From NCBI RefSeq assembly GCF_003018255.1, contig NZ_CP027440.1: 64,000 nucleotides of DNA. One strand, written 5' to 3'. A program made the position numbers and the translations under genes. The notes under the pieces are model-generated. The model searched no databases. It saw nothing but the letters and a program-made list of their open reading frames with translations, and was not told the origin of the DNA. Source of the stretch: Escherichia coli. Its GTDB lineage: Bacteria; Pseudomonadota; Gammaproteobacteria; Enterobacterales; Enterobacteriaceae. This document shows positions 2,757 through 33,590 of the stretch, in pieces; position 1 is the first letter of the stretch, and each line of letters opens with the position of its first letter.

Positions 2757-3770
2757 ATGAGGTGTGAACAAATGAAGGAAGAACAGCTTTTGTCTGATGC
2801 GATAGAGAATCTGCCAAAAGGATTCCATTTGCAGTATGAACATAGCGGTAGACATGGTAAGCACGATGCCTGGGGTAAGCTAACAGGGCCGGATGGTGAG
2901 TCAGTGATATTTGCTCTGGAAGTAAAATTTATCCACCGTAAAGAGTCACTGATGGCTGTTCGCGAACAAATGGTTCGCTTTCCTGCGGATTTTCCTGTGC
3001 TGCTGGTGTGTAACCGCCTGACGTCTGCACTGGCGGAATATTGCGCCGACAGCCAGATCAACTTTATCGATACGGCAGGGAATGCCCGTATCCAGGTTCC
3101 AGGCTTGTATGTGCGGATCGAAGGCCGCTATGAAAAGAAACCCGTTTCCGCCAGCAGTCGTTTTGCTGAAGGGGTGATGAAGCTTCTTTTTGTTTTGCTG
3201 TCTAGCCCAGAGACCCTGAACGAGACTTACCGCAGTCTGGCCGGAAAGGCAGGTATCTCTCTGGGAATGGTCAGCAAGGCTTTTGATTATCTCGAAGCGC
3301 AACGCTATTTCCGCAAATCGAAGAAGGGGCGTCGCTTAATCAATGAAGGCGAGTTAGAGGCTTTGTGGCTGAAAGATTATGCTACAGCTTTGCGCCCTAA
3401 GCTGGATTCGCTTTCTTTATCCGCGCCTGTTTCATGGGATGAGTTGACGCTTGCGTCCGGGGAATACTGGAGCGGCGAGATTGCGGCGGCAAAGCTGAGC
3501 GGAGGATACCTGATACCAGAAAATGGCGTGATTTTTACATCCCATCCGTTGTTACAAAGGCGAAAGGAACTGGGACTAAAACCTGTTCCGGGGGGGAAAC
3601 TACAGCTGATCGCCGGTTTTTGGGGGAACTTTGTACTGAATCACAAAGCCGAGGCGATGCTATGCGTGGCTGAACTGCTGGCAAGCGGGGATGACAGAAA
3701 CTGGGAAACAGCAAGGATAATCAATGACAAATATCTTCACCTTAATGAATCCGATCTCTTCAGCTACTGA
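2757..3770 (+). CDS. Hypothetical protein, first gene of two-gene cassette; possible DNA-binding or antitoxin-like partner of the nucleotidyltransferase
   Basis: 337-aa ORF (alternative start 2772). N-terminal segment PDGESVIFALEVKF resembles a PD-(D/E)xK motif; central segment GISLGMVSKAFDYLEAQRYFRK looks like a helix-turn-helix. Overlaps the downstream gene. Confidence 0.55.
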   Translation: MRCEQMKEEQLLSDAIENLPKGFHLQYEHSGRHGKHDAWGKLTGPDGESVIFALEVKFIHRKESLMAVREQMVRFPADFPVLLVCNRLTSALAEYCADSQINFIDTAGNARIQVPGLYVRIEGRYEKKPVSASSRFAEGVMKLLFVLLSSPETLNETYRSLAGKAGISLGMVSKAFDYLEAQRYFRKSKKGRRLINEGELEALWLKDYATALRPKLDSLSLSAPVSWDELTLASGEYWSGEIAAAKLSGGYLIPENGVIFTSHPLLQRRKELGLKPVPGGKLQLIAGFWGNFVLNHKAEAMLCVAELLASGDDRNWETARIINDKYLHLNESDLFSY

Positions 3771-4533
3771 AACGTTACTGAGTCAGATCAACCGTATTTG
3801 CACCGCTCAGGGGATCCCGTTTTTTATTGCAGGTGCAACGGCTCGTGAAATTCTGCTCCATCATATACACAGCAGAAGTATTGGTCGCCGAACCCGTGAT
3901 ATTGATATTGCCGTCTTTGTGGATAGCTGGCCGAGATTTGATGCGCTTAAAAATGCTTTCCTTGCTGAAGGGGCAGAAGTTGTCCAAGGTAATGCCCATC
4001 GTATGATTGTCAAAGGGATCGAGCTAGATATTATTCCTTTTGGTGGTGTTGCTGAAGGAAATCAAATTGCCTGGCCACCAGAACGTGAGATCATAATGGC
4101 TGTGGATGGATTTGCCGAAGTCTTTTCTCATACCGTAGTTGTGCGGCTGGATAACAGCGAAAATATTCCGTTCTGCTCCTTGCCAGGACTGGCTCTGTTA
4201 AAACTTTTTGCATGGCGTGATCGTGGGCATGGGAGTACTAAAGACGCGACCGATCTCTTTAAGATTATCTGTGAATATGGTGTTATCGAGAATGAACGCA
4301 TCTATGAATCGCCCGTCGAAGGGGAACGCCTGAACTGGGATCCCATACGTATGGGCGCTTTTCTGTTGGGAAGCGATATAGCGACAATTAGTGAACACTC
4401 ATCCTTGCAGGATTTACTCCATCTTGATAAAGAACGCCTGATCGATGTGATAGTACGACAACATGACGTGGGTGATGCTGGGATTGAGCAGATCATCAAT
4501 GATTTCTGGGATGGTATGGCAAGTGATGGTTGA
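3724..4533 (+). CDS. Nucleotidyltransferase-fold protein (Pol-beta superfamily; AbiEii/DUF1814-like or MNT-like)
   Basis: 269-aa ORF with the minimal NTase signature AGATAREILL...RRTRDIDIAVFVD (Gly-rich loop followed by DxD) and a downstream acidic motif GIELDIIPFG. Start codon uncertain; overlaps the upstream gene. Confidence 0.6.
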   Translation: MTNIFTLMNPISSATETLLSQINRICTAQGIPFFIAGATAREILLHHIHSRSIGRRTRDIDIAVFVDSWPRFDALKNAFLAEGAEVVQGNAHRMIVKGIELDIIPFGGVAEGNQIAWPPEREIIMAVDGFAEVFSHTVVVRLDNSENIPFCSLPGLALLKLFAWRDRGHGSTKDATDLFKIICEYGVIENERIYESPVEGERLNWDPIRMGAFLLGSDIATISEHSSLQDLLHLDKERLIDVIVRQHDVGDAGIEQIINDFWDGMASDG

Positions 4534-15443: not shown

Positions 15444-16034
15444 ATGCCTGAAAAACGAAAGCATCTCACTCGTCATGAAGTGGGACAGATATTGCTTGCA
15501 GCAGACAGAGGGATCCATTTTGAGCGCGATTATTGCCTCATTCAGATGTGTTTTTTACACGGCCTGCGGGTCAGTGAACTGTGCGGGATGCGCCTGTCTG
15601 ATATCGATCTGATCGGGCGCTCGGTGTATGTCCGGCGGTTGAAAAACAGTCTCTCCACGCAGCATCCGCTGTTTGATAATGAACTGCCTGCGCTGATGCG
15701 CTGGCTGGCGGTACGCAACCGCTGGCGGGATGCGGATTCAGACTGGTTGTTCCTGTCGCAGAAGGGTGGTGCGCTGTCGCGCCATCAGGTTAGATTGTTA
15801 CTCAAACGTTACGGAGAACTGGCAGGTGTCAGCATTTCCGCTTATCCGCATATGCTGAGACACGGTTGCGGTTACGCGCTGGCAGATCTGGGGCGCGACA
15901 CCCGTCTGATACAGGATTATCTGGGGCACCGGAACATCCGGCATACGGTGATTTATACGGCGACAAATACGCAGAGGTTTATGAATGTCTGGGGAAACGT
16001 GAGAGAAAACCACACAATTAGTGCCAGAATGTAA
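15444..16034 (+). CDS. FimB/FimE-family tyrosine recombinase (fimbrial phase-switch recombinase)
   Basis: 196 aa; HPHMLRHGCGYALADLGRDTRLIQDYLGHRNIRHTVIYTA is close to the FimE C-terminal catalytic region (R-H-R-Y motifs). Confidence 0.85.
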   Translation: MPEKRKHLTRHEVGQILLAADRGIHFERDYCLIQMCFLHGLRVSELCGMRLSDIDLIGRSVYVRRLKNSLSTQHPLFDNELPALMRWLAVRNRWRDADSDWLFLSQKGGALSRHQVRLLLKRYGELAGVSISAYPHMLRHGCGYALADLGRDTRLIQDYLGHRNIRHTVIYTATNTQRFMNVWGNVRENHTISARM

Positions 16035-16160
16035 AGTAGTATCAGAAAAATTTAGCAAACTGTCAAAATTTTTCTGAGACCCCTTTTGGTAACGGACTAT
16101 CTTGTTGTTTTTAAAATAATATTTAATGTAACAAATATGTAGTCTCTCTCTGGTCCTGGC

Positions 16161-16197
16161 TGGCAACGTGCTTAAGTGGTTCACGTTGCCAGTTTTT
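16161..16197 (+). terminator. Hairpin plus T-run in the recombinase-to-fimbrial-subunit intergenic region
   Basis: tggcaacgtg...cacgttgcca stem followed by agttttta; could instead be part of a switch element. Confidence 0.35.
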
Positions 16198-16401
16198 ACT
16201 CACTCACCGCATTACGGTTTTATGCCATTTTGAAAGCCATACTTCACTTCCACTGACATTTTATTTTTCACCCCCTTCGTCCACCACATTTTCTCCTGAA
16301 CTCACCACTCTGGCACTAACGGGAAAGTCTTACGCGGGTTTTCTCGTCACCAGAGTGAATCAGGGTTGAGCCCTGAGTGATCTTTCATCAAGGAGAAACG
16401 T

Positions 16402-16914
16402 ATGAAAAAAACGATGTTAAGCGCGTGTTTTTTACTGGTGGCCGGGAATGCGGTCGCCAATGATGGCACCATCCATTTTACCGGCAGTATTACCGACCAG
16501 ACATGCACCGTGGACAGCGGTTCGCAAAACCTGAACGTCGATCTGGGCAATGTAGGGCAAACCGCACTGAACGGTGCGGCCGGGATGAAAGCCTCCCCGA
16601 CGCGCTTCACGCTCAACCTGAGTGGTTGCCCTGATACCGTTACCGGGGCGAACGTGAAGTTTGACGGGACGTCTGATGGCGTAAACCAGAACCTGCTGGC
16701 GCTGGACAGCGGTACCGGGATTGCGACCGGCGTTGGTATCGAAATCGCCGATAAAAATGGTGCAGTCATTCCTCTGCATACGGCCTCAATGGATTACCCC
16801 CTCGCGGCAGGCAGCAATACGCTGGACTTCGTCGCCCGCTATGTTTCCACCGGTACCGCGGTAACCACAGGTACAGCTAACGGTACCTCGCAGTTCACCA
16901 TTAACTACAAATAA
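16402..16914 (+). CDS. Major fimbrial subunit (type 1 / chaperone-usher pilin)
   Basis: Signal peptide, conserved Cys pair, C-terminal donor-strand-like TSQFTINYK. Confidence 0.85.
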   Translation: MKKTMLSACFLLVAGNAVANDGTIHFTGSITDQTCTVDSGSQNLNVDLGNVGQTALNGAAGMKASPTRFTLNLSGCPDTVTGANVKFDGTSDGVNQNLLALDSGTGIATGVGIEIADKNGAVIPLHTASMDYPLAAGSNTLDFVARYVSTGTAVTTGTANGTSQFTINYK

Positions 16915-17027
16915 CGCTGTGCCGTCGCGGGGTTCACCACCTCTCCCATCCTACCCGACCTGGTGTACCGCCGCATAACAGGGACTGTTTCGCAGGGATG
17001 CGTATTTTTCGTCCGGAGAACAAGAAG

Positions 17028-17708
17028 ATGAACAGGTATGCAGACGTGGTGCTGGCACTGTTGCTGGCTTTCCTGAGCGTACAGGCGCAGGCCGGGATCG
17101 TGATTGGCGGTACGCGCGTGATTTATGACGGGGATAAAAAAGAGACGGCCGCCTCGGTACGCAACCCGGAGAAATCCGGCGTCTACCTGGTGCAAAGCTG
17201 GGTAGACAGTGGCGAACAGGGGGGCAAAACGCCGTTTATCGTCACGCCACCGTTGTTTCGCATTAATCCCGGCGAAGAGAACATGCTGCGCATTGTGCGC
17301 ACCGGAGGCAACCTGCCGCAGGACAGGGAGTCGGTGTTCTGGCTGAACGTGAAATCGATCCCCGCTACCGACGACAGCCATTCGCGCACCAACGTGTTGC
17401 AGGTAGTGGTCAAGTCGCGGCTGAAACTGTTTTACCGTCCGGCAGGCCTGGAAGGGCAGCCGGAGAGTGCCTATCACCAGTTGAGCGTTGCCCACAGCGG
17501 TAACCATCTTACCGTCAGCAATCCCACACCGTATTACGTCACGCTGTTCACCCTGAAGGTCGACGGGCAGGAGATTAAAGAGGCGGATATGGTGCCGCCG
17601 AAAGGCAGTGTGAGTTTCACGCTACCGTCAGCGACTGCAAGCGCGGTGACCTGGCAGGCCATCAGCGACTATGGCGGTGTCAGCCAGACCGAAAGCCGTA
17701 AGCTGTGA
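17028..17708 (+). CDS. Periplasmic fimbrial chaperone (PapD/FimC family)
   Basis: Start MNRYADVV with GGAGAA ribosome-binding site; signal peptide; chaperone-fold motifs. Confidence 0.85.
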   Translation: MNRYADVVLALLLAFLSVQAQAGIVIGGTRVIYDGDKKETAASVRNPEKSGVYLVQSWVDSGEQGGKTPFIVTPPLFRINPGEENMLRIVRTGGNLPQDRESVFWLNVKSIPATDDSHSRTNVLQVVVKSRLKLFYRPAGLEGQPESAYHQLSVAHSGNHLTVSNPTPYYVTLFTLKVDGQEIKEADMVPPKGSVSFTLPSATASAVTWQAISDYGGVSQTESRKL

Positions 17709-17719
17709 AGGAGGACGTG

Positions 17720-20236
17720 ATGAATAACCCGACGCCACGTTTGATGATAATCCTGCTGACGCTGTTGTTGGCAATAGTGCTTTTGTCTGGCTATTTGCGT
17801 AATGCCGAGGCGCGTGAGGTGTTTAACCCCCACGCGCTGGAGATTGATAACCCCGGCCAGCCGGTGGCGGATTTATCCACCTTTGCGGAATCCGGTGGTC
17901 AGCTACCTGGTACCTACCGCGTAACGGTCTTCGTGAACGGTGAAAAGCAGAGCGACGCACAGGATATTGCTTTTATTGACGGAGCCAAAAAGAAACTCAG
18001 CCCGCAGATAACGCCTGCGATGCTGAAAGCCTGGGGCGTCAAAACGGACGTCTTCCCGGCACTGGCAGCACTGCCGCCGGATCAACCACTGGATGATATT
18101 GGCCGCTATATCCCGATGGCCAACACTGAACTGCGCTTCAGTAAATTGCAGTTGAACGTCAGTATTCCCCAGGCGGCAATGAATGCCAGCGCCAGAGGAT
18201 ACGTGGATCCGTCCGAATGGGACGAAGGTGTCCCCGCCGCACTGCTGAACTACAACCTCAGCGGCAGCAACACCTGGCGCGATGGACAAAACGGTTCGGA
18301 TGATAACTACTACGCGAACCTGCAAAGCGGTATCAACCTCGGCGCGTGGCGGCTACGCAACTACTCGACCTGGAATTATGACGAAGATAATGGTAGCCAC
18401 TGGGATTCAGTAAACACGTACCTGCAACGGGATATCCAGCGCCTGAAGGGACAACTGACGCTCGGCGACAGCTACACGCCGTCGGACATCTTCGACAGCG
18501 TCCAGTTTCGCGGCGCGCAGTTGGCATCTGACGACAACATGCTGCCGGACAGCCTGCGCGGGTTCGCCCCGGTGATCCGCGGTATCGCCCAGTCTAACGC
18601 TCAGGTGACCATTAAGCAGAACGGCTACATCATCTACCAGAGCTACGTCGCGCCGGGTGCGTTTACCATCACCGATCTGTATCCGACCTCGGGCAGCGGT
18701 GACCTGGAAGTGACCATCAAAGAGGCCGACGGCAGCGAGCGCACCTTCGTCCAGCCGTTCTCGGCGGTGCCGATTATGCAACGTGAAGGCCGCCTGAAAT
18801 ATGCCCTGACCGCCGGGAAATACCGCAGCGGCAATGAGGACAGCGACGAGCCGCAGTTCGGCCAGGTCACTGCGATTTACGGTCTGCCGCATGCTATCAC
18901 CGTCTATGGCGGCACGCTGTACTCGGACGATTATCAGTCTGGCGCCGCAGGGCTCGGTTTTGGCCTCGGTGAACTCGGTTCGCTGTCAGCCGATATCACC
19001 GCCGCCCATACCACGCTCAATAACGATGAAACCCACAACGGGCAGTCGTACCGGGTGCAGTATTCGAAGGATTTTCAGACCACCGACACCAGCTTCACGC
19101 TGGCGGCATATCGCTACTCCACCGCCGGATTTTACACCTTCCAGGAAGCCAACGACCTGAGGGCTGATGATGATAACGGCTGGCAGATGACGTACAACAA
19201 ACGCCAGCGCCTCCAGTTAGATCTCAGTCAGAGTATCGGTAGCTATGGCTCGTTTTTTATCTCCGGCTACCAGCAGGATTACTGGCAGGAGGACGGCTAC
19301 GAACGCACGTTGAGCGCGGGCTGGAACGGGAATATCGACGGTATCAGCTACAGCGTTACCTGGAGTTACAGCGACTACCCGGAGAGCACGCAGCCTGCCG
19401 ACCAGCAACTGGCGTTCAACATCCAGGTGCCGCTCAGCCGCTTTATGCCGAACGCCTGGGCGAGCTACAGCGTCAACACCGCGAAACACGGCGATACCCG
19501 CCAGCAGGTAGGGCTGAACGGTACGGCGCTTGCCGACAACAACCTGAGCTACAGCCTCCAGCAGAGCTACACCAACCATGGTGTGGGCGGCTCCGGCAAT
19601 ATCAACGCCGACTATAAAGGCGGGCAGGGGGAAATCACCGGAGGCTACAACTATGACGACGACACGCAGCAGGTTAACTACGGGCTGAAGGGCGGTATTG
19701 TCGCGCATCCGCATGGCATCACGCTTTCGCAGCCGCTCGGCCAGTCGCTGGCGATCGTGAAAGCGCCCGGTGCGGATGATACGAAGGTACAGAACAACAC
19801 CGGGGTTTACACCGACTGGCGCGGTTATGCGGTAGTGCCGTATGTGAACCCGTACAAGAAAAACCGTATTGCGCTCGACACCAGCACGCTTGGCGACGAA
19901 GTGGATACCGACACTGCCGTACAGACCGTGACCCCCACGCAGGGTGCCGTGGTGATGGCGGATTTTAACACCCGTGTCGGGCGGCGTGTGCTCATGACGC
20001 TGCTGTACCGTGGGCTGCCAGTCCCCTTTGGCGCAGAGGCGAAGCTGAAAGAGGGCGGCAGCGGTATTGTCGGCGATGATGGCCAGGTCTATCTGACTGG
20101 CGTGCCGGAGGAAGGCGATATTGCGGTTAACTGGAACGGAGCACAACAGTGCGTGGTGCATTACCGTTTACCGGAACAGGAAAACCAGCCGTCAGTGATC
20201 CTGGTGAACCAGGAATGCAGGGAGGTGGCAAAATGA
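17720..20236 (+). CDS. Outer-membrane fimbrial usher (FimD/PapC family)
   Basis: About 840 aa, signal peptide, usher length and composition; AGGAGG ribosome-binding site before ATG 17720. Confidence 0.9.
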   Translation: MNNPTPRLMIILLTLLLAIVLLSGYLRNAEAREVFNPHALEIDNPGQPVADLSTFAESGGQLPGTYRVTVFVNGEKQSDAQDIAFIDGAKKKLSPQITPAMLKAWGVKTDVFPALAALPPDQPLDDIGRYIPMANTELRFSKLQLNVSIPQAAMNASARGYVDPSEWDEGVPAALLNYNLSGSNTWRDGQNGSDDNYYANLQSGINLGAWRLRNYSTWNYDEDNGSHWDSVNTYLQRDIQRLKGQLTLGDSYTPSDIFDSVQFRGAQLASDDNMLPDSLRGFAPVIRGIAQSNAQVTIKQNGYIIYQSYVAPGAFTITDLYPTSGSGDLEVTIKEADGSERTFVQPFSAVPIMQREGRLKYALTAGKYRSGNEDSDEPQFGQVTAIYGLPHAITVYGGTLYSDDYQSGAAGLGFGLGELGSLSADITAAHTTLNNDETHNGQSYRVQYSKDFQTTDTSFTLAAYRYSTAGFYTFQEANDLRADDDNGWQMTYNKRQRLQLDLSQSIGSYGSFFISGYQQDYWQEDGYERTLSAGWNGNIDGISYSVTWSYSDYPESTQPADQQLAFNIQVPLSRFMPNAWASYSVNTAKHGDTRQQVGLNGTALADNNLSYSLQQSYTNHGVGGSGNINADYKGGQGEITGGYNYDDDTQQVNYGLKGGIVAHPHGITLSQPLGQSLAIVKAPGADDTKVQNNTGVYTDWRGYAVVPYVNPYKKNRIALDTSTLGDEVDTDTAVQTVTPTQGAVVMADFNTRVGRRVLMTLLYRGLPVPFGAEAKLKEGGSGIVGDDGQVYLTGVPEEGDIAVNWNGAQQCVVHYRLPEQENQPSVILVNQECREVAK

Positions 20237-21237
20237 GAGTATGGCGCGGGATGATTCTGCTGGCGGGGATCCTGTTCTGCCAGGCGTCGTGGGCGTTTTG
20301 CACGTCTTCGGTGAGTTTCTCCATCAGCCCCGGTACGGTGGTGGTCCAGCGGGATGCTGTGGTGGGGGAACCCATTAGCGACTGGCTGGTGTCGAACCAG
20401 GGGATGGCCTATCAGGACTGCAATTATGATGCAACGCCACAATACGTCATCAATGCAGGCATCAAAAACACGGGCTCCCGCGCCAGCGTCACCTGGAATG
20501 GTGAGGCGGTGTTTAACAGTAATGTCGCAGGTGTGGGATTTGTGTTTGAAGGCCGCTCCTCGGTCGACAGCAATCCGTTACCGGAAAACTGGATCGGTAT
20601 CGCCAGCGGGCAGTCGCAGGTATTCACGCTCCAGATAAGCCACAGCGTTGGCTACCATCCCTCCATTAACGATCAGGCGCGGATCCGGCTGATAAAAACC
20701 GGCGACATTACGCCCGGTACGCTGAGCGGCAACCTGGGGCGTTTTATCGCGGGGACAAGGGAGAACGGGCAGTGGTCGACTGAAATTCCCATTACATTTT
20801 CCGGTGGGCAAATCACCACCATCGCCTGCTCAGTGACCACGCCTGATGTCAATGTGCCGCTGGGGCAGCATCAAAAAGCGGAGTTCTCCGGGCCGGGAAC
20901 GGGAACCGGCTGGCAGGCGTTTAACATCGGGCTGGACTGCGATAAAAGTGCCCGTATCAACGTTCAGATAGATGCCGTACAGGATCCGTCCAACGTGGCT
21001 GGCGTGATGAAGCTGGACAGCGCGCCCGGAGACATGGCGGCTACGGGCATCGGTGTCCAGTTGTTCTTTGCACCGGATAACAGCGCCGTACAGTTTGGTC
21101 AGTCACGCTATTACTATACCTCTCCCAATGGCGGTACTGAGACAGTGCAGCTTAAGGCGCGGTATTACCAGACCGCAGCCACGATTACTGCAGGTGTTGC
21201 CAATGCCACGGCGACCTTCACGCTGACCTATAAATGA
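20233..21237 (+). CDS. Fimbrial minor subunit / adhesin-like protein 1
   Basis: Start MRVWRGMILLAGILFCQASWA overlaps the usher stop by 4 bp (ATGA); pilin-type C-terminus ATFTLTYK. Confidence 0.7.
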   Translation: MRVWRGMILLAGILFCQASWAFCTSSVSFSISPGTVVVQRDAVVGEPISDWLVSNQGMAYQDCNYDATPQYVINAGIKNTGSRASVTWNGEAVFNSNVAGVGFVFEGRSSVDSNPLPENWIGIASGQSQVFTLQISHSVGYHPSINDQARIRLIKTGDITPGTLSGNLGRFIAGTRENGQWSTEIPITFSGGQITTIACSVTTPDVNVPLGQHQKAEFSGPGTGTGWQAFNIGLDCDKSARINVQIDAVQDPSNVAGVMKLDSAPGDMAATGIGVQLFFAPDNSAVQFGQSRYYYTSPNGGTETVQLKARYYQTAATITAGVANATATFTLTYK

Positions 21238-21255
21238 CGTCGCCGGAGTGTTGAG

Positions 21256-22203
21256 ATGAGAAAAATTCTTTTCTTCCTGCTGTTGATGATAGCCGTCCTG
21301 CCGGAGGTTCAGGCCACCTGTTCGTTCTACGGTGGTGTGACATCAGAAGTATCGGGTTACCTGAATTTCGGCAACGTGGTTATCCAGCGGGATGCACAGG
21401 TCGGCAGCACGATTGCCACTGCCATTACAGGGGCATACAACAATGGCGACGGCATTGCCGGGTGTAAGCGGGAGGCCTGGACCGCCCGCTGGGAACTGAC
21501 GCAATGGGGGACGCTGAGTGGCTATGGGAATGGTGTCTACAACACCAACCTGCCAGGGGTAGGATTACGTCTGAGTGCGGCCTCGACAGGTAAAACATTG
21601 CCCTATGAAACCAGCTACGCCTACAACGCTGGCGGCACCTGGGTATCCATTCCCGGTGATGGCATCAAGGGCGAGCTTATCAAAACCGGGGATATCACCA
21701 GCGGTACATTAACGGACGGTGTGCTGGCGCGCGCTTCGGTAGTGAATCAGTTTTATTTTGCCAACGTCACGTTGAACGGGATGAACACAGTGAAATCAGA
21801 AGCTTGTACTGTGACCACGCCCTCTGTTGATGTCCCGATGGGGGATCACGATAAAAGCGAATTCAGTGGTGCGGGATCTTCAACCGACTGGGTGAGCTTT
21901 GATATTGGTTTGAGCTGCGATGTCGGGGCGAGAATAAACGTACGTATCGATGCCACTGCGGATGCTTCCGCCGGTTCGCAAGGCGTCATGCTGATTGATA
22001 GCGGCGGGGCGTCTGGCGTGGGGATACAACTTCATTACCGCCCGGATGATGCCGCTGTCCAGTACGGTCAGGAACGGTTTTACTGGCAGTCGGTATATGG
22101 TGACGAGATCGTGCAGCTTAAGGCGCGATATTACCAGACTGCAGGCTCGATCACGCCAGGTGCGGCAAACGGTACGGCGACGTTTACGATGAGTTATAAA
22201 TAG
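21256..22203 (+). CDS. Fimbrial minor subunit / adhesin-like protein 2 (paralog of previous)
   Basis: Signal peptide MRKILFFLLLMIAVLPEVQA; C-terminal pilin domain ATFTMSYK matching the previous gene. Confidence 0.7.
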   Translation: MRKILFFLLLMIAVLPEVQATCSFYGGVTSEVSGYLNFGNVVIQRDAQVGSTIATAITGAYNNGDGIAGCKREAWTARWELTQWGTLSGYGNGVYNTNLPGVGLRLSAASTGKTLPYETSYAYNAGGTWVSIPGDGIKGELIKTGDITSGTLTDGVLARASVVNQFYFANVTLNGMNTVKSEACTVTTPSVDVPMGDHDKSEFSGAGSSTDWVSFDIGLSCDVGARINVRIDATADASAGSQGVMLIDSGGASGVGIQLHYRPDDAAVQYGQERFYWQSVYGDEIVQLKARYYQTAGSITPGAANGTATFTMSYK

Positions 22204-29065: not shown

Positions 29066-29341
29066 TTATGTCCCGGAGTTTTCTGTTGTTGTCATGAGGT
29101 GAAGCGGTTTACGGGGTTCACGTTTATTTCCCGTATTGAGGTAACGTTCCGGCCAGATTTCTGACGGATGCTTTCCCAGCGCAATGGCAATCAGCCACTC
29201 ACCTTTCGGCCACGGTCGGTTCAGGGCATTCGCCAGCGTTGACGAGGCCAGTCCCGCTTCCCGCGAGAGTTTCGCCAGACTGGTGCCGCGCTTGTGTAAG
29301 GCGGCAATGATATCGGCGGGGTGCCAGTCTTTTTTAGTCAT
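29066..29341 (-). CDS. Nlp/Ner-family DNA-binding protein
   Basis: WHPADIIAALHKRGTSLAKLSREAGLASSTLANALNRPWPKGE closely resembles Nlp/Ner. Confidence 0.75.
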   Translation of the reverse strand: MTKKDWHPADIIAALHKRGTSLAKLSREAGLASSTLANALNRPWPKGEWLIAIALGKHPSEIWPERYLNTGNKREPRKPLHLMTTTENSGT

Positions 29342-29359
29342 TCCGTTTACCTCTATTGT

Positions 29360-29410
29360 TGACTATGAGTCACGAATGTATGCTAGCACGCTTTTTATGT
29401 GACTCATAGT
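29360..29410 (+). promoter_or_regulatory. Inverted pair of 13-bp sites GACTATGAGTCAC (29360-29372) and GTGACTCATAGTC (29398-29410) in a divergent promoter region
   Basis: Seen directly between the Nlp-like gene and the first Xre gene. Confidence 0.5.
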
Positions 29411-29448
29411 CCGTGGACTGATAATCAACGAAGATTGATGCTGGCTAG

Positions 29449-29712
29449 ATGGAAAAGACGGGATCAATCAAAAAGGTACTGGGTAAAAGAATCAGGGCTC
29501 TACGCCGTGAGATGGACCTATCCCAGGAAGCTTTAGCCGACAAATGCGGTATCGATCGCACCTATATGAGTGGAATTGAGCGAGGAGTAAGGAACCCCAC
29601 GCTTGTTGTCATTTGTGCAATCTCGGACGGTCTGGGGATGGATCTTAGCCATTTATTTATGTTTGACGATGGCGCAGAAAAGGACGCCGAATCAACGAAG
29701 TGTGACTCATAG
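29449..29712 (+). CDS. Xre-family HTH regulator (paralog A)
   Basis: LSQEALADKCGIDRTYMSGIERGVRNPTL helix-turn-helix. Confidence 0.7.
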   Translation: MEKTGSIKKVLGKRIRALRREMDLSQEALADKCGIDRTYMSGIERGVRNPTLVVICAISDGLGMDLSHLFMFDDGAEKDAESTKCDS

Positions 29713-29714
29713 TC
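29702..29714 (+). promoter_or_regulatory. Third copy of operator-like site GTGACTCATAGTC, overlapping the stop of Xre paralog A
   Basis: gtgactcatagtccgtgg(a/t)ctgata is repeated at 29398 and 29702. Confidence 0.5.
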
Positions 29715-29751
29715 CGTGGTCTGATAGACAACGTAAGTTCATTTTATCTGG

Positions 29752-29976
29752 ATGAAAAATACATCCAGTATTCAGGCGCAGTTTGGCGCACATCTCAAAA
29801 AACTCAGACTCCAGTCGGGCCTGTCTCAGGAAGCATTCGCGGATAAGTGTGGTCTCGATCGTACTTATGTGAGCGGTATTGAGCGGGGAGTAAGGAATCC
29901 AACCCTTGAGGTGATAAGTGTTTTAGGAAAAGGGTTGGACATGGACATCAAAGAATTATTCAACTTTGAAAGATAG
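29752..29976 (+). CDS. Xre-family HTH regulator (paralog B)
   Basis: LSQEAFADKCGLDRTYVSGIERGVRNPTL; tandem paralog of the previous gene. Confidence 0.7.
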   Translation: MKNTSSIQAQFGAHLKKLRLQSGLSQEAFADKCGLDRTYVSGIERGVRNPTLEVISVLGKGLDMDIKELFNFER

Positions 29977-29978
29977 GT

Positions 29979-30899
29979 TTATCTATTAGTAGCAACTCTA
30001 TCCGCAGCAGTACGGGTAACTTGATTTCCAACATCCCAGCCGTTTTCATCTGGGAGTGACATCCCATCCATTGGCATTAGGATAAAACCACCAATAGTTG
30101 GTCCAAATGACTCAGTAGTGTTAATTCCTGCATAGCTTGTTCTGATAATATTTTCATTCAAATTGGTCAAAAATGATATTCGAGTACCAAGTGGGTGCGC
30201 GGTTACCATTTGGATGTATCCACCAATAGTATTGACTGTTTCTTGGTTAATCCAATTATTCAAAGCAATAAACGGGGTACGCCACCAATTTATTGTGTTA
30301 GGAGTAAATTGTTGCCTGGTATTCTCTATAAACTCATTAAGTTCATGCAAGTTATCACCTAATAAAACAGGTCTGCCTGTTGATAAATTTTGAATATCTT
30401 CAATCTGGAGGTTGGCTGGGTGCTCAATAGAGTTATTGAGTTTTATAATTTTGTAGGTTTGTGTTCTCCAGCAAAAACCAAAAATTATCATCTGTATTCT
30501 TACTGCTTGGGGAAAGGATTGGCCGATATCAGACATATATTGCTCGGCAATATTTTTTGCTAATGAAGCTATTTCATTAAGACTTGGGAATGCTTCGGTC
30601 GATATTTGTTGTTCTGGATTATTGTTCGCAATCTCATGAAGTCTTGCTAATGATACTGCAAGCATTTCTTTGACATTAATTCCAATCATTGTACTTCCTG
30701 CAAATCCGAAGCCAAATTCGAATATTTTTTGCGGGTGAATTCGATAAACGTCCGAAGAGCGAATAACTGATACGGGGATTGAGAATAATTTCGGACAATG
30801 GTCAGTTAGTCTGCTATTTTGCTGAGTGATTCTTGAGTCGCTGACTGCCCAAATACTATCGCTTTCCTCTCTATTAAACCAACATGCAATTGCGGTCAT
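29979..30899 (-). CDS. Candidate N-terminal-nucleophile hydrolase with proteasome-beta/HslV-like N-terminal region and ~130-aa C-terminal extension
   Basis: From the internal start, M-TAIACWFNREESDSIWAVSDSRIT...FGFGFAGS echoes HslV TTIVSV...VIAGDGQAT...AGFAGG; AT-rich. Confidence 0.45.
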   Translation of the reverse strand: MTAIACWFNREESDSIWAVSDSRITQQNSRLTDHCPKLFSIPVSVIRSSDVYRIHPQKIFEFGFGFAGSTMIGINVKEMLAVSLARLHEIANNNPEQQISTEAFPSLNEIASLAKNIAEQYMSDIGQSFPQAVRIQMIIFGFCWRTQTYKIIKLNNSIEHPANLQIEDIQNLSTGRPVLLGDNLHELNEFIENTRQQFTPNTINWWRTPFIALNNWINQETVNTIGGYIQMVTAHPLGTRISFLTNLNENIIRTSYAGINTTESFGPTIGGFILMPMDGMSLPDENGWDVGNQVTRTAADRVATNR

Positions 30900-30947
30900 A
30901 AGGTTTTTCCAGTTATTTAACATTAATGCGAATAGCTTAGCATATTT

Positions 30948-33590
30948 TTATTGCGAGATTACCGAGCTTAGGGTTATCGCCGCCTCCACTTCACTACACC
31001 CTGTCTCCTTCATAATCCGCATCCTATCGGCCTTTTCATGTTTCTCTGTCATCGCCAGCGCCAGATAGAGCGCTGGCGGCACCACCCGAAACAGTGCCTC
31101 TATACGCGGTGAAAGCACCACGCCCTCGGTATACTGCCCCGGTGATTTTACCGCTGAGCGCAGCAGTTGGCTCTGTTCTTCCGTAAGCGCTTTAAACCGG
31201 CAGACCTGCTCGATCTCTTCCGGCGGCATCACCAGTAGTTCCCACCATTCGATCATATTGAGCAGCTTCTTCGCCTCATCAGGAAAATCCGCCAGGTTCT
31301 GGGTGGCGAGCCACAGCCAGATACCGAGCTTGCGCCACATCTTCGAGCCTTTGGTGAGAAAGCGCGCCAATAAGGGATTAACAGTGATGATATGCGCCTC
31401 ATCGGTGATATTGACGATAGGCCTCGCCAGATGCTGGGCGCGCTCGCCGAGGTTATTGATATGGTTAATCAGCGAGATATAGCTGATGGCAAGCTGCGCT
31501 TCATAGCCTTCGCGGGCAAAGGTGGCGAGATCCACTAGGGTGATATCCGCCTCCGGCCACATCTGGCCTTCACGGTTAAACAGTTCGCCTTCAAACCCGG
31601 CGCAGAACAGGTTGATGGATTCCGCCATTTCATACGCCCTCTGGCGGCGGGCTTCCGGCAGACTGTTGTCGCGGGAAAGGGCGAACAGTGCGTCACGGAT
31701 ATCCTGGGTCAGCGTCTGTCGTTTTTCCTCGTAGCAGGTGTGCGCGGCAGCGATAATCGCCTGGCGGATCATCGCCCGATCCGGCCGGGTGAGGCGCGCA
31801 TCCTCTTTCGCTTCACCACCGGTAATCATCAACCGGGCGGTGATCTCCATTTCACCCAGCACGTCGCGCTGGTCATCGCCGTCGCTCTCTTCGTCCTCTG
31901 GCGGTTCGGCGTCGGTAACTGCCTGTTCCACCAGTCGCCACGCATCGGCGAACAGGGGCAGGGTGACGCCAGAACCGGGGCGCAGGCTGATTTTATTCAC
32001 CGTCAGGCCGTGGGCGGCGGCGTAGTCGGCCATCAGGCCAAATGAGTTTCCGGCCTCGATGATAAACAGGCGCGGACGATGTAGCGCCATCAGTTGCGCG
32101 ATTTTCGCGTTGAGGGTGGCGGATTTGCCCGCTCCGGTTGGCCCAAGAAGTAAAAGGTGTCCGTTCTGGGCACGATCCAGCTTGTTCAGCGGATCGAAGC
32201 ACAGCGGCGTGCCGCCCCGGTTGAAGTAGCTGATCCCCGGATGCCCGGTGCCGGTTTCCCGTCCGTACAGCGGCAGCAGCCCGGCGATATGCTGCACAAA
32301 GTTGAGCCGGGTATACAGCCCGCGCGGGTCGCGCAGGGGATCGAAGCACATCGGCAGCCAGCGCAGCCAGTGGCTTAAGGGGGCGACTTCGTGCTGCTCC
32401 TGCACCGGAACCAGCCCGGCGTTGAGCAGCAGGCTCTGTAGCTGACGCTGCTGGCGGAACAGGATATCGGTGTCCGGCGCGCTGAGATAAAACGCCAGCG
32501 TGCTGCGGTAGAGTTTATGGCCGTCCTTCAGGAAGCTTCGCACCTCGCTGCAGTCGCGGCGGGTGTATTCCGAATCGGTATTGTCGCCAATCGCCCGGTC
32601 GGCCAGGCGGCTGATGTGTTGCTCCAGCTTGTCCTGCGGATACACCACCACGGTCAGGTTCATGATGGTTCCGCCAGGCAGCAGGTCGACCAGGGCGTTA
32701 ATGCCGTCTCCGCGCGCGGTTTCCCCGGTCAGCAGGCCGGGCGGCGGCGCTTTGCGCAGGCGGTCAACCACCACCACTTTATGCGGGCGGTTATCCAGCC
32801 ACCAGACGCCGTTTGCCGCATCCGAACGGGGTTCACTCGCCAGCAGGCGTTCGGCGAAATCGGCCAGGACCGGCAGCGGTTCAGTTTCCGGCAGGTCAAG
32901 CTGCTGCCAGAAGGCTTTTTTGTCCTCAGCAGGCGGCGCGGGATTAAACCAGCGCACCAGCCAGCGGTGAATGTCCTGCTCATTCTGGCGGATAGCGCTG
33001 ATACCCGCCGCTTTTAGCCCGGCGGTAAGGCGTTCGCAGATATTATTCAGCGTCTCTTCCGGCGACGGTTCATCCGGTGAAAGTCCAGGAAGCCATCGGT
33101 ACACCACCATCCGCGTGCGCCGCCACGTCGCCCGCCAGCGGGTACGGGTGACGGTGTTATCGAGAAACAGTCCCTCGTCGCGGGTGAGATTCACCATATG
33201 GTTTGCCATCTGTGTGAGCCACTCGCGGGTAAAGGCGGAGTCGCGGATTTCCGGTGCGGCGTAAGAGGCAAGTGATGCCAGCCACGCCTCGCTGTCGTCC
33301 TCATCCTGACAGAAAAACTGTACCACCCACGGTGCGCGCTCATGCTCATCAAACGCATCCTGTAAGGCATCGGTGACGGTATCGCGGACCTGTTCCAGAA
33401 ACGCCGTTGAGCGGCCTTCGGTGCCAACGGGATATAGCTCAAATACGGCACCTACCGAGCGGCCATCTTCCAGCAGCAGCGTCTGCGACTCCGGCAAAAA
33501 CTCCACCCACGGCAGCCAGTCGACAAATGACGGGCCCTTGCGGTAGCTGGTATTCAGCGCCTGTTCAGTCAGGCCGCGCCGTTCATTCAT
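30948..33590 (-). CDS. Conjugative-transfer ATPase (TraC/VirB4-like)
   Basis: 880 aa; Walker A LLLLGPTGAGKSATL. Confidence 0.85.
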   Translation of the reverse strand: MNERRGLTEQALNTSYRKGPSFVDWLPWVEFLPESQTLLLEDGRSVGAVFELYPVGTEGRSTAFLEQVRDTVTDALQDAFDEHERAPWVVQFFCQDEDDSEAWLASLASYAAPEIRDSAFTREWLTQMANHMVNLTRDEGLFLDNTVTRTRWRATWRRTRMVVYRWLPGLSPDEPSPEETLNNICERLTAGLKAAGISAIRQNEQDIHRWLVRWFNPAPPAEDKKAFWQQLDLPETEPLPVLADFAERLLASEPRSDAANGVWWLDNRPHKVVVVDRLRKAPPPGLLTGETARGDGINALVDLLPGGTIMNLTVVVYPQDKLEQHISRLADRAIGDNTDSEYTRRDCSEVRSFLKDGHKLYRSTLAFYLSAPDTDILFRQQRQLQSLLLNAGLVPVQEQHEVAPLSHWLRWLPMCFDPLRDPRGLYTRLNFVQHIAGLLPLYGRETGTGHPGISYFNRGGTPLCFDPLNKLDRAQNGHLLLLGPTGAGKSATLNAKIAQLMALHRPRLFIIEAGNSFGLMADYAAAHGLTVNKISLRPGSGVTLPLFADAWRLVEQAVTDAEPPEDEESDGDDQRDVLGEMEITARLMITGGEAKEDARLTRPDRAMIRQAIIAAAHTCYEEKRQTLTQDIRDALFALSRDNSLPEARRQRAYEMAESINLFCAGFEGELFNREGQMWPEADITLVDLATFAREGYEAQLAISYISLINHINNLGERAQHLARPIVNITDEAHIITVNPLLARFLTKGSKMWRKLGIWLWLATQNLADFPDEAKKLLNMIEWWELLVMPPEEIEQVCRFKALTEEQSQLLRSAVKSPGQYTEGVVLSPRIEALFRVVPPALYLALAMTEKHEKADRMRIMKETGCSEVEAAITLSSVISQ

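What the first reader, a model, noticed from the sequence alone, without database searches (positions are those of the whole stretch)
29357..29976. Tandem Xre-family paralogs, each preceded by the same GTGACTCATAGTC operator-like site, opposite an Nlp/Ner-like gene
Two small HTH genes with nearly identical HTH cores lie in tandem. The motif GTGACTCATAGTCCGTGG(A/T)CTGATA precedes each gene (29398, 29702), and an inverted copy (29360-29372) faces the divergently transcribed Nlp/Ner-like gene. This looks like a compact autoregulatory switch, possibly controlling ICE transfer or the adjacent proteasome-like gene.
Basis: seen in the sequence. Interest (0 to 1): 0.4.

Follow-up and report, generated by a model that had tools for sequence, protein, structure and literature searches.

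The report
Tandem C-protein switch without restriction genes
The two small regulator genes are duplicated copies of the 'controller' switch that normally times restriction-enzyme expression, but here there is no restriction system; the pair sits with a Ner-like partner gene beside a slot in a conjugative element where different cargo genes, several of them defence-related, are swapped in.

Summary
GTGACTCATAGTC occurs exactly three times, at 29399-29411 (+), 29702-29714 (+) and inverted at 29361-29373. It is not a generic Xre operator. It is the left half of a canonical C-box, GACT-N3-AGTC-CGTG-GACT-N3-AGTC, the operator of restriction-modification controller (C) proteins. Both genes (87 aa and 74 aa) match C.AhdI, C.BclI and C.Esp1396I best. 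Both carry the DRTY recognition helix that goes with a CGTG spacer. Both start 17 nt after the 35-bp operator, the spacing typical of leaderless C genes. No restriction-modification genes are linked. The Ner-like gene, the lone palindrome, the C-box and the C gene recur together in 69 species-representative loci of Enterobacterales and related taxa. All 96 C genes there have the operator 48-49 nt before the ATG, 59 of 69 loci have a divergent Ner-like gene, and 13 of 69 have tandem C genes. In this family of conjugative elements the module borders a variable slot ending at the traC-like stop codon. Here the slot holds a convergent proteasome-fold gene. Relatives hold RES, Mrr, McrBC or 8xMP genes there, and related C genes at other loci are followed by Dsr1, Hachiman or PD-T4-6 genes. 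The most likely function is an autoregulated activation/repression switch that also shuts off the ner-like promoter. Control of element transfer is unsupported. The closest precedent is QseC/QseC2. I rate it a new variant of a known kind, of moderate interest.

The parts
29066..29341 (-). Ner/Nlp-like gene (91 aa), the conserved divergent partner of the C genes
   Evidence: PF13693 HTH_35, E 8e-36. A divergent Ner-like gene lies next to a C gene in 59 of 69 species loci. dN/dS is 0.09-0.17.
29361..29371 (.). Distal lone operator: the perfect palindrome GACTATGAGTC, conserved with flanks as TGT(T/G)GACTAT(A/G)AGTCAC. It is a single-dimer site 20 bp upstream of the ner-like ATG and lies 40 bp, start to start, from OL1.
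   Evidence: It is invariant in alignment A2. Fifty related C genes have a perfect palindrome 39-42 bp (or 32 bp) upstream of OL. The analogue is the lone symmetric OM site of C.Esp1396I, its highest-affinity site (PMC3488213).
29375..29403 (-). Putative ner-like promoter (inferred): -35 GTCACA (29403-29398, overlapping the OL1 flank), a 17-nt spacer, then -10 TACATT (29380-29375) abutting the distal palindrome.
   Evidence: Read from the sequence. The same geometry is seen with TATGAT in Cedecea and TATCAT in Brenneria (alignment A2). The consensus scan did not call it. This is inference only.
29397..29431 (+). C-box 1, a 35-bp operator: OL1 GACTCATAGTC (29401-29411), spacer CGTG (29412-29415), OR1 GACTGATAATC (29416-29426).
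   Evidence: It has 1 mismatch to the 16 specified bases of GACT-N3-AGTC-N4-GACT-N3-AGTC, with 0.13 matches expected by chance. The consensus and the pairing of CGTG with a DR(T/S)Y helix come from PMC2175313. OL is invariant and OR is variable in relatives.
29414..29442 (+). Putative C-dependent promoter of C1 (inferred): -35 TGGACT (29414-29419, inside OR1), a 17-nt spacer, then the -10-like GATGCT (29437-29442), which ends 6 nt before the A of the ATG. This implies a leaderless mRNA.
   Evidence: The core ATGCT of the hexamer is invariant in 7 diverged loci and the first base is G or A (A2). There is no Shine-Dalgarno sequence. The 17 nt between the 35-bp motif and the ATG match the 17-18 nt peak for leaderless C genes (PMC2632904).
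29449..29712 (+). C1, an 87-aa C-protein paralog. Its stop codon lies inside OL2.
   Evidence: PDB best hits are C.AhdI (E 3.6e-10), C.BclI and C.Esp1396I. It keeps equivalents of Q24, E25, R35, T36, R46, N47 and T49. dN/dS is 0.06-0.15.
29700..29734 (+). C-box 2, a 35-bp operator: OL2 GACTCATAGTC (29704-29714), spacer CGTG (29715-29718), OR2 GTCTGATAGAC (29719-29729). The -10-like CATTTT is at 29740-29745.
   Evidence: It has 2 mismatches to the C-box consensus. TGTGACT..GTCCGTGGTCTGA is invariant in alignment A3. There are 17 nt between the motif and the C2 ATG.
29752..29976 (+). C2, a 74-aa C-protein paralog and the more conserved of the two.
   Evidence: PDB best hits are C.AhdI (E 1.7e-12), C.Esp1396I and C.BclI. 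It has 1380 homologues at E<=1e-8, and the top 120 are all Enterobacterales. dN/dS is 0.04-0.10.
29977..30975 (.). Variable cargo slot between the C2 stop and the traC-like 3' end. Here it holds one convergent gene (29979-30923, minus strand; 314 aa, or 306 aa from the second Met) with a proteasome beta/Anbu-like fold.
   Evidence: Homology between ICE variants stops at about 29957-29971 and resumes at about 30976. Alternative contents are RES, 8xMP, Mrr and McrBC genes. For the fold.

Best explanation
C1 and C2 are paralogous members of the restriction-modification controller (C) protein family, in the PvuII/AhdI/Esp1396I-like group with a DRTY recognition helix and a CGTG spacer. The ancestral unit of C-box plus leaderless C gene was duplicated in tandem as a 303-bp unit.

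Proposed mechanism, inferred by analogy with characterised C proteins. A dimer binding the strong, perfectly palindromic OL activates the weak promoter whose -35 lies in OR. At higher concentration a second dimer binds the degenerate OR cooperatively and represses. Because both paralogs share the recognition helix and both operators share OL, each protein should act on both promoters. This would give a coupled two-gene autoregulatory loop.

Occupancy of OL1, which overlaps the putative -35 of the ner-like promoter, and of the lone distal palindrome, which covers its start region, would shut off the divergent ner-like gene and the genes behind it. That would make a Ner-ON/C-ON toggle or an establishment timer.

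The module is not part of a restriction-modification system. It is a conserved, portable regulatory cassette. In this ICE family it forms the fixed left border of a variable cargo slot next to the traC-like gene. In this window the slot gene is convergent, so the direct targets here are most likely C1, C2 and the ner-like operon.

Shown: family assignment, operator architecture, geometry, conservation and context. Inferred: binding, activation and repression, leaderless starts, repression of ner, and any effect on cargo.
For: Family. The top PDB sequence hits for both proteins are C.AhdI, C.BclI and C.Esp1396I (E 1e-10 to 1e-12), well ahead of other Xre proteins such as SinR. The closest plasmid homologues, about 48% identical, sit in C-R-M loci.

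Operator. Both sites fit GACT-N3-AGTC-N4-GACT-N3-AGTC with 1 and 2 mismatches, against 0.13 matches expected. The spacer is CGTG, as reported for C proteins with a DR(T/S)Y helix (PMC2175313). The 35-bp site resembles the C.Esp1396I operator ATGTGACTTATAGTCCGTGTGATTATAGTCAACAT (PMC2504287).

Residues. Equivalents of Q24, E25, R35, T36, R46, N47 and T49 are kept in both paralogs (PMC2504287; PMC3488213).

Geometry. There are 17 nt from motif to ATG for both genes, which matches the 17-18 nt peak for leaderless C genes (PMC2632904). In relatives, 96 of 96 C genes have OL 48-49 nt before the ATG, and 95 of 96 have a CGTG spacer. A -10-like hexamer ending 6 nt before the C1 ATG has an invariant ATGCT core.

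Strong OL and weak OR.

Three-site precedent. C.Esp1396I binds a lone symmetric OM (KD 0.61 nM), OL (5.6 nM) and OR (120 nM, cooperative).

Selection. dN/dS is 0.04-0.17 with synonymous sites saturated, yet the operators are unchanged.

Local regulon. There is no other C-box in the window. In 5426 E. coli genomes the full C-box occurs only in this module, at two places per genome.
Against: There are no binding, transcription-start or expression data. The sigma-70 consensus scan found no promoter in either intergenic region. That is expected for weak C-dependent promoters, but it is still an absence of evidence.

No gene is co-transcribed downstream of C2 in this window, so the classic purpose of a C circuit, delaying a toxic downstream gene, has no obvious object here.

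What the Ner-like protein binds or does is unknown. The proposed ner promoter rests on hexamers matching 4 of 6 positions. Whether C1 and C2 are redundant, form heterodimers or have distinct roles is untested.
Confidence: 0.72

Rival explanations
1. A QseC/QseC2-type epigenetic switch that sets the frequency of ICE excision and transfer. The tandem C proteins would toggle a divergent regulator, here the Ner-like protein, that in turn controls conjugation genes.
For: There is a direct precedent. On ICEMlSymR7A the tandem C-protein genes qseC and qseC2, with OL/OR operators and a leaderless qseC, form a bistable switch controlling the divergent qseM and hence quorum sensing and transfer (PMC8789080). 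The module here lies inside the T4SS gene cluster of an ICE.
Against: The divergent partner is a Ner-like HTH_35 protein, not a DUF2285 antiactivator. Both paralogs share one specificity, whereas QseC and QseC2 belong to different motif classes. No C-box lies near any transfer, excision or replication gene in the 64 kb. The same module occurs in 69 species loci with no TraC-like gene in the DNA fetched, up to 7 kb either side, including a conserved chromosomal site in Xenorhabdus. Ner-like targets are unknown, so an indirect link cannot be excluded.
Confidence: 0.12
2. Orphan C proteins that act in trans on other elements. A resident C would switch on the endonuclease of an incoming C-controlled restriction-modification system with the same C-box class too early, killing the invaded cell (mutual exclusion). 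It could also over-repress a resident system of that class.
For: Pre-expressed C blocks establishment of the cognate system, and related C proteins cross-complement, which gives mutual exclusion (PMC12707154). OL here has the same 11-bp core as the symmetrised PvuII box, GACTCATAGTC, and differs by one base from the C.Esp1396I OL, so cross-talk is plausible. No restriction-modification genes are linked.
Against: This does not explain the conserved Ner-like partner and the lone distal site (59 of 69 loci), nor the fixed position next to variable cargo. No enterobacterial plasmid in PLSDB carries a near-identical C-box. The idea is compatible with the main explanation as a side effect.
Confidence: 0.12
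3. A decaying remnant of a former C-dependent restriction-modification system that has no function now.
For: Only about 25% of computationally identified C genes are linked to restriction-modification genes, and vestiges were proposed as one reason (PMC2632904).
Against: ORFs are intact in every locus examined. Purifying selection is strong (dN/dS 0.04-0.17). Operator geometry is exact in 96 of 96 genes across many genera. The partner gene is conserved.
Confidence: 0.03
4. Xre-type antitoxins or generic repressors of the adjacent cargo, for example an Xre-RES toxin-antitoxin pair.
For: In E. coli C11 a co-oriented RES-domain gene follows C2.
Against: C1 and C2 are single HTH domains without the Xre/MbcA/ParS toxin-binding domain. 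The RES protein scores far below the ParT-toxin cut-off (19 bits against 110). The cargo differs from strain to strain while C2 stays the same.
Confidence: 0.03

Closest known systems
Restriction-modification controller proteins C.Esp1396I, C.AhdI and C.PvuII with their C-boxes
   Same: They share the single-domain Xre fold family and are the best sequence matches. The DRTY helix, the residues equivalent to Q24, E25, R35, T36 and R46, and the 35-bp operator with a strong OL, a CGTG spacer and a weak OR are all the same. So is the 17-nt distance to a probably leaderless start. Like Esp1396I, there is also a third, lone symmetric site at another promoter.
   Different: No endonuclease or methyltransferase gene is linked. 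The C gene is duplicated in tandem, each copy with its own C-box. The divergent gene is a Ner-like DNA-binding protein, not a methyltransferase. In this window nothing is co-transcribed downstream.
QseC / QseC2 / QseM switch of ICEMlSymR7A (Mesorhizobium)
   Same: C-protein-like genes not linked to restriction-modification lie in tandem on an ICE. Each is preceded by a pair of operators, and the second pair sits at the 3' end of the first gene. There is a divergent small partner gene whose promoter overlaps the operators. The first C gene is leaderless and self-activating.
   Different: QseC (motif 4) and QseC2 (motif 7) belong to different families with different operators. Here the two are recent paralogs with the same operator. 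The partner there is the DUF2285 antiactivator QseM; here it is Ner-like HTH_35. That ICE is alphaproteobacterial and regulated by quorum sensing; this one is of the PFGI-1/SPI-7 class in E. coli. No link to transfer is shown here.
Paired C-protein genes listed by Sorokin, Severinov and Gelfand (2009)
   Same: Their Table 3 lists pairs of C-like genes within 3 kb, four of the seven pairs with the same motif class in both genes (the text counts eight loci, six same-motif), and they speculated that such pairs run higher-order circuits. Most new C genes lay in mobile-element contexts rather than restriction-modification contexts.
   Different: None of the listed pairs is this enterobacterial ICE module. 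The Ner-like partner, the lone distal site and the association with a variable cargo slot were not described there.
Divergent repressor toggles of temperate phages (Mu c/Ner, lambda CI/Cro)
   Same: Two small DNA-binding proteins are transcribed divergently from overlapping promoter and operator regions. One partner is a homologue of Mu Ner (PF13693).
   Different: There are no phage genes nearby. The other partner is a C protein rather than a c/CI repressor. Binding of the Ner-like protein in this intergenic region is not shown.

Membership tests
R-M controller (C) protein family, PvuII-like group | Small (about 70-100 aa) single-domain Xre-type HTH protein whose nearest characterised relatives are C proteins | tested here: met
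   PF01381 is the only domain type. The top PDB hits are C.AhdI, C.BclI and C.Esp1396I, E 1e-10 to 1e-12.
R-M controller (C) protein family, PvuII-like group | Recognition helix DR(T/S)Y or HRTY, with conserved DNA-contact and cooperativity residues (C.Esp1396I E25, R35, T36, R46) | tested here: met
   Both paralogs read SQE...DRTY...VRNPT. The residue roles come from PMC2504287 and PMC3488213.
R-M controller (C) protein family, PvuII-like group | [quoted passage not shown] | tested here: met
   29401-29426 has 1 mismatch and 29704-29729 has 2. Both spacers are CGTG. 0.13 matches are expected by chance. The rule is from PMC2175313.
R-M controller (C) protein family, PvuII-like group | A promoter-distal operator close to consensus and a degenerate promoter-proximal operator | tested here: met
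   OL is perfect and invariant; OR varies, with 25 variants among 96 genes.
R-M controller (C) protein family, PvuII-like group | About 17-18 nt between the 35-bp motif and the start codon (leaderless mRNA) | tested here: met
   The distance is 17 nt for both genes. OL starts 48-49 nt before the ATG in 96 of 96 relatives. The criterion is from PMC2632904. The transcription start itself was not mapped.
R-M controller (C) protein family, PvuII-like group | Genetic linkage to, and control of, a restriction endonuclease and methyltransferase | tested here: not met
   The neighbours are a ner-like gene, a PTS IIA-like gene, a permease, a proteasome-fold gene and the traC-like gene. The only restriction-modification-like genes (M 58280-59419, putative R 57271-58344, vsr 59645-60100) are 28 kb away and have no C-box.
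R-M controller (C) protein family, PvuII-like group | Concentration-dependent activation and then repression of its own promoter | not testable with these tools
   This needs EMSA or reporter titration.
QseC/QseC2-type ICE transfer switch | C-protein-like gene with OL/OR between it and a divergently transcribed partner gene, on an ICE | tested here: met
   The description of QseC is in PMC8789080.
QseC/QseC2-type ICE transfer switch | The partner is the DUF2285 antiactivator QseM acting on TraR/FseA | tested here: not met
   The partner is PF13693 HTH_35, Ner-like.
QseC/QseC2-type ICE transfer switch | The second tandem C gene is of a different motif class with its own distinct operators, repressing an antisense promoter | tested here: not met
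   C1 and C2 share the recognition helix, and OL1 equals OL2. An antisense promoter was not examined experimentally.
QseC/QseC2-type ICE transfer switch | Controls ICE excision and conjugative transfer | not testable with these tools
   Circumstantial evidence is against an ICE-specific role. No C-box lies elsewhere in the ICE, and the module is common outside ICEs.
Xre-RES / ParST-type antitoxin | An Xre HTH fused to a C-terminal toxin-binding domain (Xre/MbcA/ParS), paired with a RES toxin | tested here: not met
   There is no such domain. A RES gene is present only in a variant strain and is atypical.

The most novel reading that the evidence does not exclude
The Ner-like gene, the distal site, the C-box and the C gene, single or duplicated, together form a portable establishment timer or bistable gate that bacteria and mobile elements place in front of very different toxic defence effectors, not only restriction enzymes. 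Examples seen here are Dsr1/SIR2, Hachiman HamAB, a PD-T4-6 kinase, a STAND NTPase and a RES protein. The conserved C gene would also serve as the homologous anchor that lets defence cassettes be swapped into the slot next to the traC-like gene of PFGI-1/SPI-7-class ICEs. On this reading, C-protein logic (express the safe side first, the dangerous side later) is a general solution for transferring defence genes horizontally.
Probability: 0.35. Interest if true: 0.65.

Novelty: new variant of a known kind. Interest (0 to 1): 0.45.

Why it matters
C-protein switches are the textbook way a restriction-modification system enters a new cell without killing it. Sorokin et al. (2009) asked whether C genes found away from restriction-modification systems control other toxic genes, and that question is still open. 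This locus, with its 69 relatives, offers a concrete and highly conserved test case. It has one operator class, exact geometry and a constant Ner-like partner. In relatives, recognised defence systems (Dsr1, Hachiman, PD-T4-6, Mrr, McrBC) sit immediately downstream. It also marks a precisely bounded cargo slot in a widespread family of enterobacterial ICEs. All three regulator genes carry only generic helix-turn-helix names in RefSeq, so the link to C proteins cannot be seen from current annotation.

Tried and rejected
1. I looked for a linked restriction-modification system. None lies within about 28 kb. The distal Dcm-type M, putative R and Vsr cluster has no C-box in its control region.

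2. I tested whether the 314-aa ORF is an inverted copy of the RES gene seen in strain C11. There is no similarity.

3. I scanned the 314-aa ORF against Pfam, NCBIfam and PADLOC and found no hit. Only structure prediction was informative.

4. The sigma-70 consensus scan found no promoter in the two control regions. The promoter proposals therefore rest on conserved geometry, not on that scan.

5. I searched PLSDB plasmids with the 40-nt C-box to find restriction-modification systems with the same operator. Only weak Photobacterium hits without restriction-modification context came back.

6. The E. coli IH5 hit is a patchwork of gene fragments and I ignored it.

7. Literature searches for orphan C proteins, for C proteins linked to Hachiman or defence systems, and for Ner-like plus Xre on ICEs found no description of this module. 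The library is limited to open-access papers and bioRxiv preprints, so absence there is not proof of novelty.

8. The 11-mer AATCAACGAAG occurs just after OR1 (29423) and again just before OL2 (29690) (D4). It is probably a scar of the duplication, but I could not explain it.
Full report
OBSERVATION. GTGACTCATAGTC occurs exactly at 29399-29411 and 29702-29714 on the plus strand, and as a reverse complement at 29361-29373. Allowing two mismatches gives 4 matches in the window against 0.72 expected, and none of 100 shuffles reached 4. The two direct copies head a 303-bp tandem duplication. Its 62-nt upstream block and its 104-nt coding core are each 77% identical between copies. Two ORFs follow, at 29449-29712 (87 aa, here C1) and 29752-29976 (74 aa, here C2). 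Both are single HTH_3 domains. They are 57% identical overall and nearly identical through the helix-turn-helix. The divergent gene at 29066-29341 is Ner/Nlp-like (PF13693, E 8e-36).

WHAT THE PROTEINS AND SITES ARE. Searched against all PDB sequences, both proteins hit the restriction-modification controller proteins first: C.AhdI, C.BclI and C.Esp1396I, at E 1e-10 to 1e-12. Other Xre proteins such as SinR score near 1e-5.

The published consensus is GACT-N3-AGTC-N4-GACT-N3-AGTC. The central spacer is predominantly CGTG when the recognition helix reads DR(T/S)Y, and TGTA when it reads HRTY (PMC2175313; PMC2504287). The window has GACTcatAGTC-cgtg-GACTgatAATC at 29401-29426, with 1 mismatch in 16 specified bases. 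It has GACTcatAGTC-cgtg-GTCTgatAGAC at 29704-29729, with 2 mismatches. Chance expectation is 0.13. Both proteins read DRTY, so the spacer is the one the rule predicts.

Both paralogs keep the C.Esp1396I residues that contact DNA or mediate cooperativity and activation: Q24, E25, R35, T36, R46, N47 and T49.

Sorokin et al. defined the full site as 35 bp and found a sharp peak of 17-18 nt between it and the start codon, which they read as leaderless translation (PMC2632904). Here the 35-bp sites are 29397-29431 and 29700-29734, and each is followed by exactly 17 nt before the ATG. Neither gene has a Shine-Dalgarno sequence.

The third, inverted copy is a lone perfect palindrome (GACTATGAGTC, 29361-29371), that is, a site for one dimer. 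C.Esp1396I has the same three-operator layout. It binds a lone symmetric OM at another promoter (KD 0.61 nM), OL (5.6 nM) and a weak cooperative OR (120 nM) (PMC3488213).

CONTEXT IN THE WINDOW. The 2-kb region around the finding is 100% identical to the E. coli JNE23-011 chromosome. In that record's annotation the window lies in a PFGI-1/SPI-7-class integrative conjugative element next to a tRNA-Leu gene. The element has a MobH relaxase, TraD, a TraG-N-domain protein, TIGR037xx ICE proteins and PilL2. RefSeq names all three regulators only 'helix-turn-helix domain-containing protein'.

No restriction-modification genes adjoin the C genes. The only methyltransferase, putative endonuclease and vsr cluster lies at 57.3-60.1 kb and has no C-box. 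No further C-box exists in the 64 kb. In 5426 complete E. coli genomes the full C-box is found only inside this module, at two places per genome. The directly recognisable regulon is therefore local.

CONSERVATION. C2 has 1380 homologues at E<=1e-8, and the 120 best are all from Enterobacterales. In ICEs of Klebsiella, Salmonella and E. coli the order is constant. A sugar-PTS or permease operon is followed by the ner-like gene on one strand, then C1 and C2 on the other, then a variable segment, then the traC-like ATPase gene.

A scan of one genome per species returned 79 loci, of which 69 are from Enterobacterales and related taxa. I counted features in those 69:
- All 96 C genes have an OL with at most one mismatch, starting 48 nt (89 genes) or 49 nt (7 genes) before the ATG.
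- 95 of the 96 have a CGTG spacer.
- 59 of the 69 loci have a divergent Ner-like gene next to a C gene.
- 50 C genes have a perfect lone palindrome 39-42 bp (47 genes) or 32 bp (3 genes) upstream of OL.
- 13 of the 69 loci have tandem C genes.

Alignments of diverged loci show three invariant islands in otherwise drifting DNA: the lone palindrome, OL plus CGTGG, and the core ATGCT of a -10-like hexamer (G/A)ATGCT that ends 6 nt before the C1 ATG. All three genes are under purifying selection (dN/dS 0.04-0.17), and synonymous sites are saturated between distant pairs. C1 orthologues group together, and so do C2 orthologues, so the duplication is old. This disposes of both the 'chance' and the 'decayed remnant' readings.

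THE SLOT NEXT DOOR. Between ICE variants, homology runs to the C2 stop (about 29957-29971) and resumes at about 30976, just inside the 3' end of the traC-like gene. The 1-kb segment between them varies from strain to strain.

In this window the slot holds a convergent gene of 314 aa, or 306 aa from the second Met. E. coli C11 has a co-oriented RES-domain gene. K. pneumoniae has an 8xMP gene. K. oxytoca has an Mrr-type nuclease, which PADLOC matches to its type IV methyl-directed restriction enzyme model mREase_IV. Salmonella has unknown genes together with McrBC.

Other species loci carry this C subfamily without a TraC-like gene in the DNA fetched. There the co-oriented downstream genes include the following:
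- Dsr1, a SIR2-domain protein (PADLOC E 1.5e-108).
- HamA (E 4.5e-118) with HamB.
- A PD-T4-6-type kinase.
- A STAND NTPase.
- A type II methyltransferase.
- In an E. coli dusC island, a HamB-like helicase gene preceded by a 244-aa ORF with no family match.

The cargo is not always defence-related. In Xenorhabdus it is a TauE-family membrane protein, or nothing at all.

HOW IT MOST LIKELY WORKS. By analogy with PvuII, AhdI and Esp1396I, low C would bind OL and activate the weak promoter whose -35 lies in OR: TGGACT 29414-19, a 17-nt spacer, GATGCT 29437-42, start near 29449. The same geometry holds for C2. High C would fill OR cooperatively and repress. Because C1 and C2 share the recognition helix and OL1 equals OL2, each should act on both promoters, which couples the two loops.

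On the minus strand a plausible ner-like promoter has its -35 (GTCACA, 29403-29398) overlapping the OL1 flank. Its -10 (TACATT, 29380-29375) abuts the lone palindrome. Cedecea (TATGAT) and Brenneria (TATCAT) keep this geometry. C occupancy would therefore shut off the ner-like gene.

The result would be a toggle or delay: the Ner side on first, then the C side on. This is the same logic as methyltransferase first and endonuclease later. These steps are inferences. What is shown is family, operator architecture, geometry, conservation and context. In this window nothing is co-transcribed after C2. The two convergent genes end 2 bp apart and only a weak terminator-like hairpin lies between them. 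Any effect on the proteasome-fold gene would therefore have to come from convergent transcription, which is speculative.

COMPARISON WITH WHAT IS KNOWN. By sequence and operator the proteins are members of the C-protein family. The one defining feature they fail is linkage to restriction and modification genes.

C-like genes outside restriction-modification systems were noted in 2009, when only about 25% of new C genes were linked to such systems. That paper reported loci with paired C genes and speculated that they run higher-order circuits (PMC2632904).

The closest worked example is QseC/QseC2 on ICEMlSymR7A. These are tandem C-type genes, each with its own operator pair, a leaderless self-activating qseC, and a divergent partner, qseM. 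Together they form an epigenetic switch for quorum sensing and transfer (PMC8789080). The differences here are:
- The two paralogs share one specificity.
- The partner is Ner-like rather than DUF2285.
- A lone third site is present.
- The ICE family is different.
- The module is mostly found outside ICEs.

I found no description of this enterobacterial module in the searchable literature. That library covers only open-access papers and bioRxiv preprints.

VERDICT. I rate it a new variant of a known kind, of moderate interest. Its value lies in offering a clean, conserved test case for whether C-protein timing logic has been reused for defence genes other than restriction enzymes.

Noticed in passing
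window 29979-30923 (-): The slot gene belongs to a tiny family of 27 clusters, all annotated hypothetical, from Enterobacterales plus Photobacterium and Cupriavidus. It has no Pfam, NCBIfam or PADLOC hit. The AF2 model (pLDDT 81.5, pTM 0.83) matches proteasome beta subunits and Anbu (Foldseek E about 2e-7, TM 0.6-0.7 normalised to the target). D21 and K37 are invariant and T2 nearly invariant (306-aa numbering), which resembles the Thr1/Asp17/Lys33 triad of N-terminal-nucleophile hydrolases. It could be an uncharacterised standalone HslV/Anbu-like peptidase sitting in a slot that holds defence genes in other strains.
   Followed up: partly
window 29977-30975; L009, L010, L014, L018, L021: A precisely bounded variable slot lies between the C2 stop and the stop of the traC-like gene in this ICE family. 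Its alternative contents include RES, 8xMP, Mrr-like and McrBC genes and several unknown genes of 384-520 aa.
   Followed up: partly
window 29449 vs 29512: In the identical RefSeq record, PGAP starts C1 at an internal Met (66 aa, MDLSQ...). The 87-aa start at 29449 is supported by the 17-nt operator spacing, by conservation, and by the annotation of strain C11.
   Followed up: yes
window 29423-29433 and 29690-29700: The 11-mer AATCAACGAAG occurs just after OR1 and again immediately before OL2, out of register with the 303-bp duplication. It may be a scar of how the duplication arose, but it remains unexplained.
   Followed up: partly
L008 5990-9856 (E. coli LR-29-1, island in dusC): A single C gene of the same subfamily, with a lone palindrome and a C-box, lies upstream of a 244-aa gene and a HamB-like helicase gene (PADLOC E 2e-58). 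It sits beside an anti-phage dCTP deaminase gene and two recombinase genes.
   Followed up: partly
L042, L092, L057, L052, L093-L095: Members of the same C subfamily sit directly upstream of, and co-oriented with, Dsr1 (SIR2), HamA/HamB, a PD-T4-6-type kinase, a STAND NTPase, a type II methyltransferase and a HATPase_c_3 protein in Serratia, Brenneria, Dickeya and Citrobacter.
   Followed up: partly
window 53211-60100: A second defence cluster lies near the right end of the ICE: DUF262 (648 aa), DUF3696 (383 aa), a 307-aa ORF, and then a putative endonuclease, a C5-cytosine methyltransferase and Vsr. No C-box is associated with it.
   Followed up: no
window 2757-4533; about 39.2-39.8 kb; about 45.9-47.7 kb: The RefSeq annotation shows an AbiEi/AbiEii pair near the integrase end, a RelE/ParE-CopG toxin-antitoxin pair inside the T4SS region, and a topoisomerase III gene with an internal stop. 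The integrase next to tRNA-Leu is annotated as truncated.
   Followed up: no
window 15444-22203: A tyrosine-type DNA invertase gene precedes a chaperone-usher fimbrial operon carried as ICE cargo, which suggests a fim-like invertible switch. I did not examine it.
   Followed up: no
L045-L096 (Xenorhabdus, Photorhabdus): The Ner-like/C module sits at a conserved chromosomal position in many Xenorhabdus species, next to IU_nuc_hydro and DAO genes, with an optional TauE-family gene after C. Photorhabdus species carry two C genes 0.5-3 kb apart, which matches the Plu191/Plu192 pair listed by Sorokin et al.
   Followed up: partly
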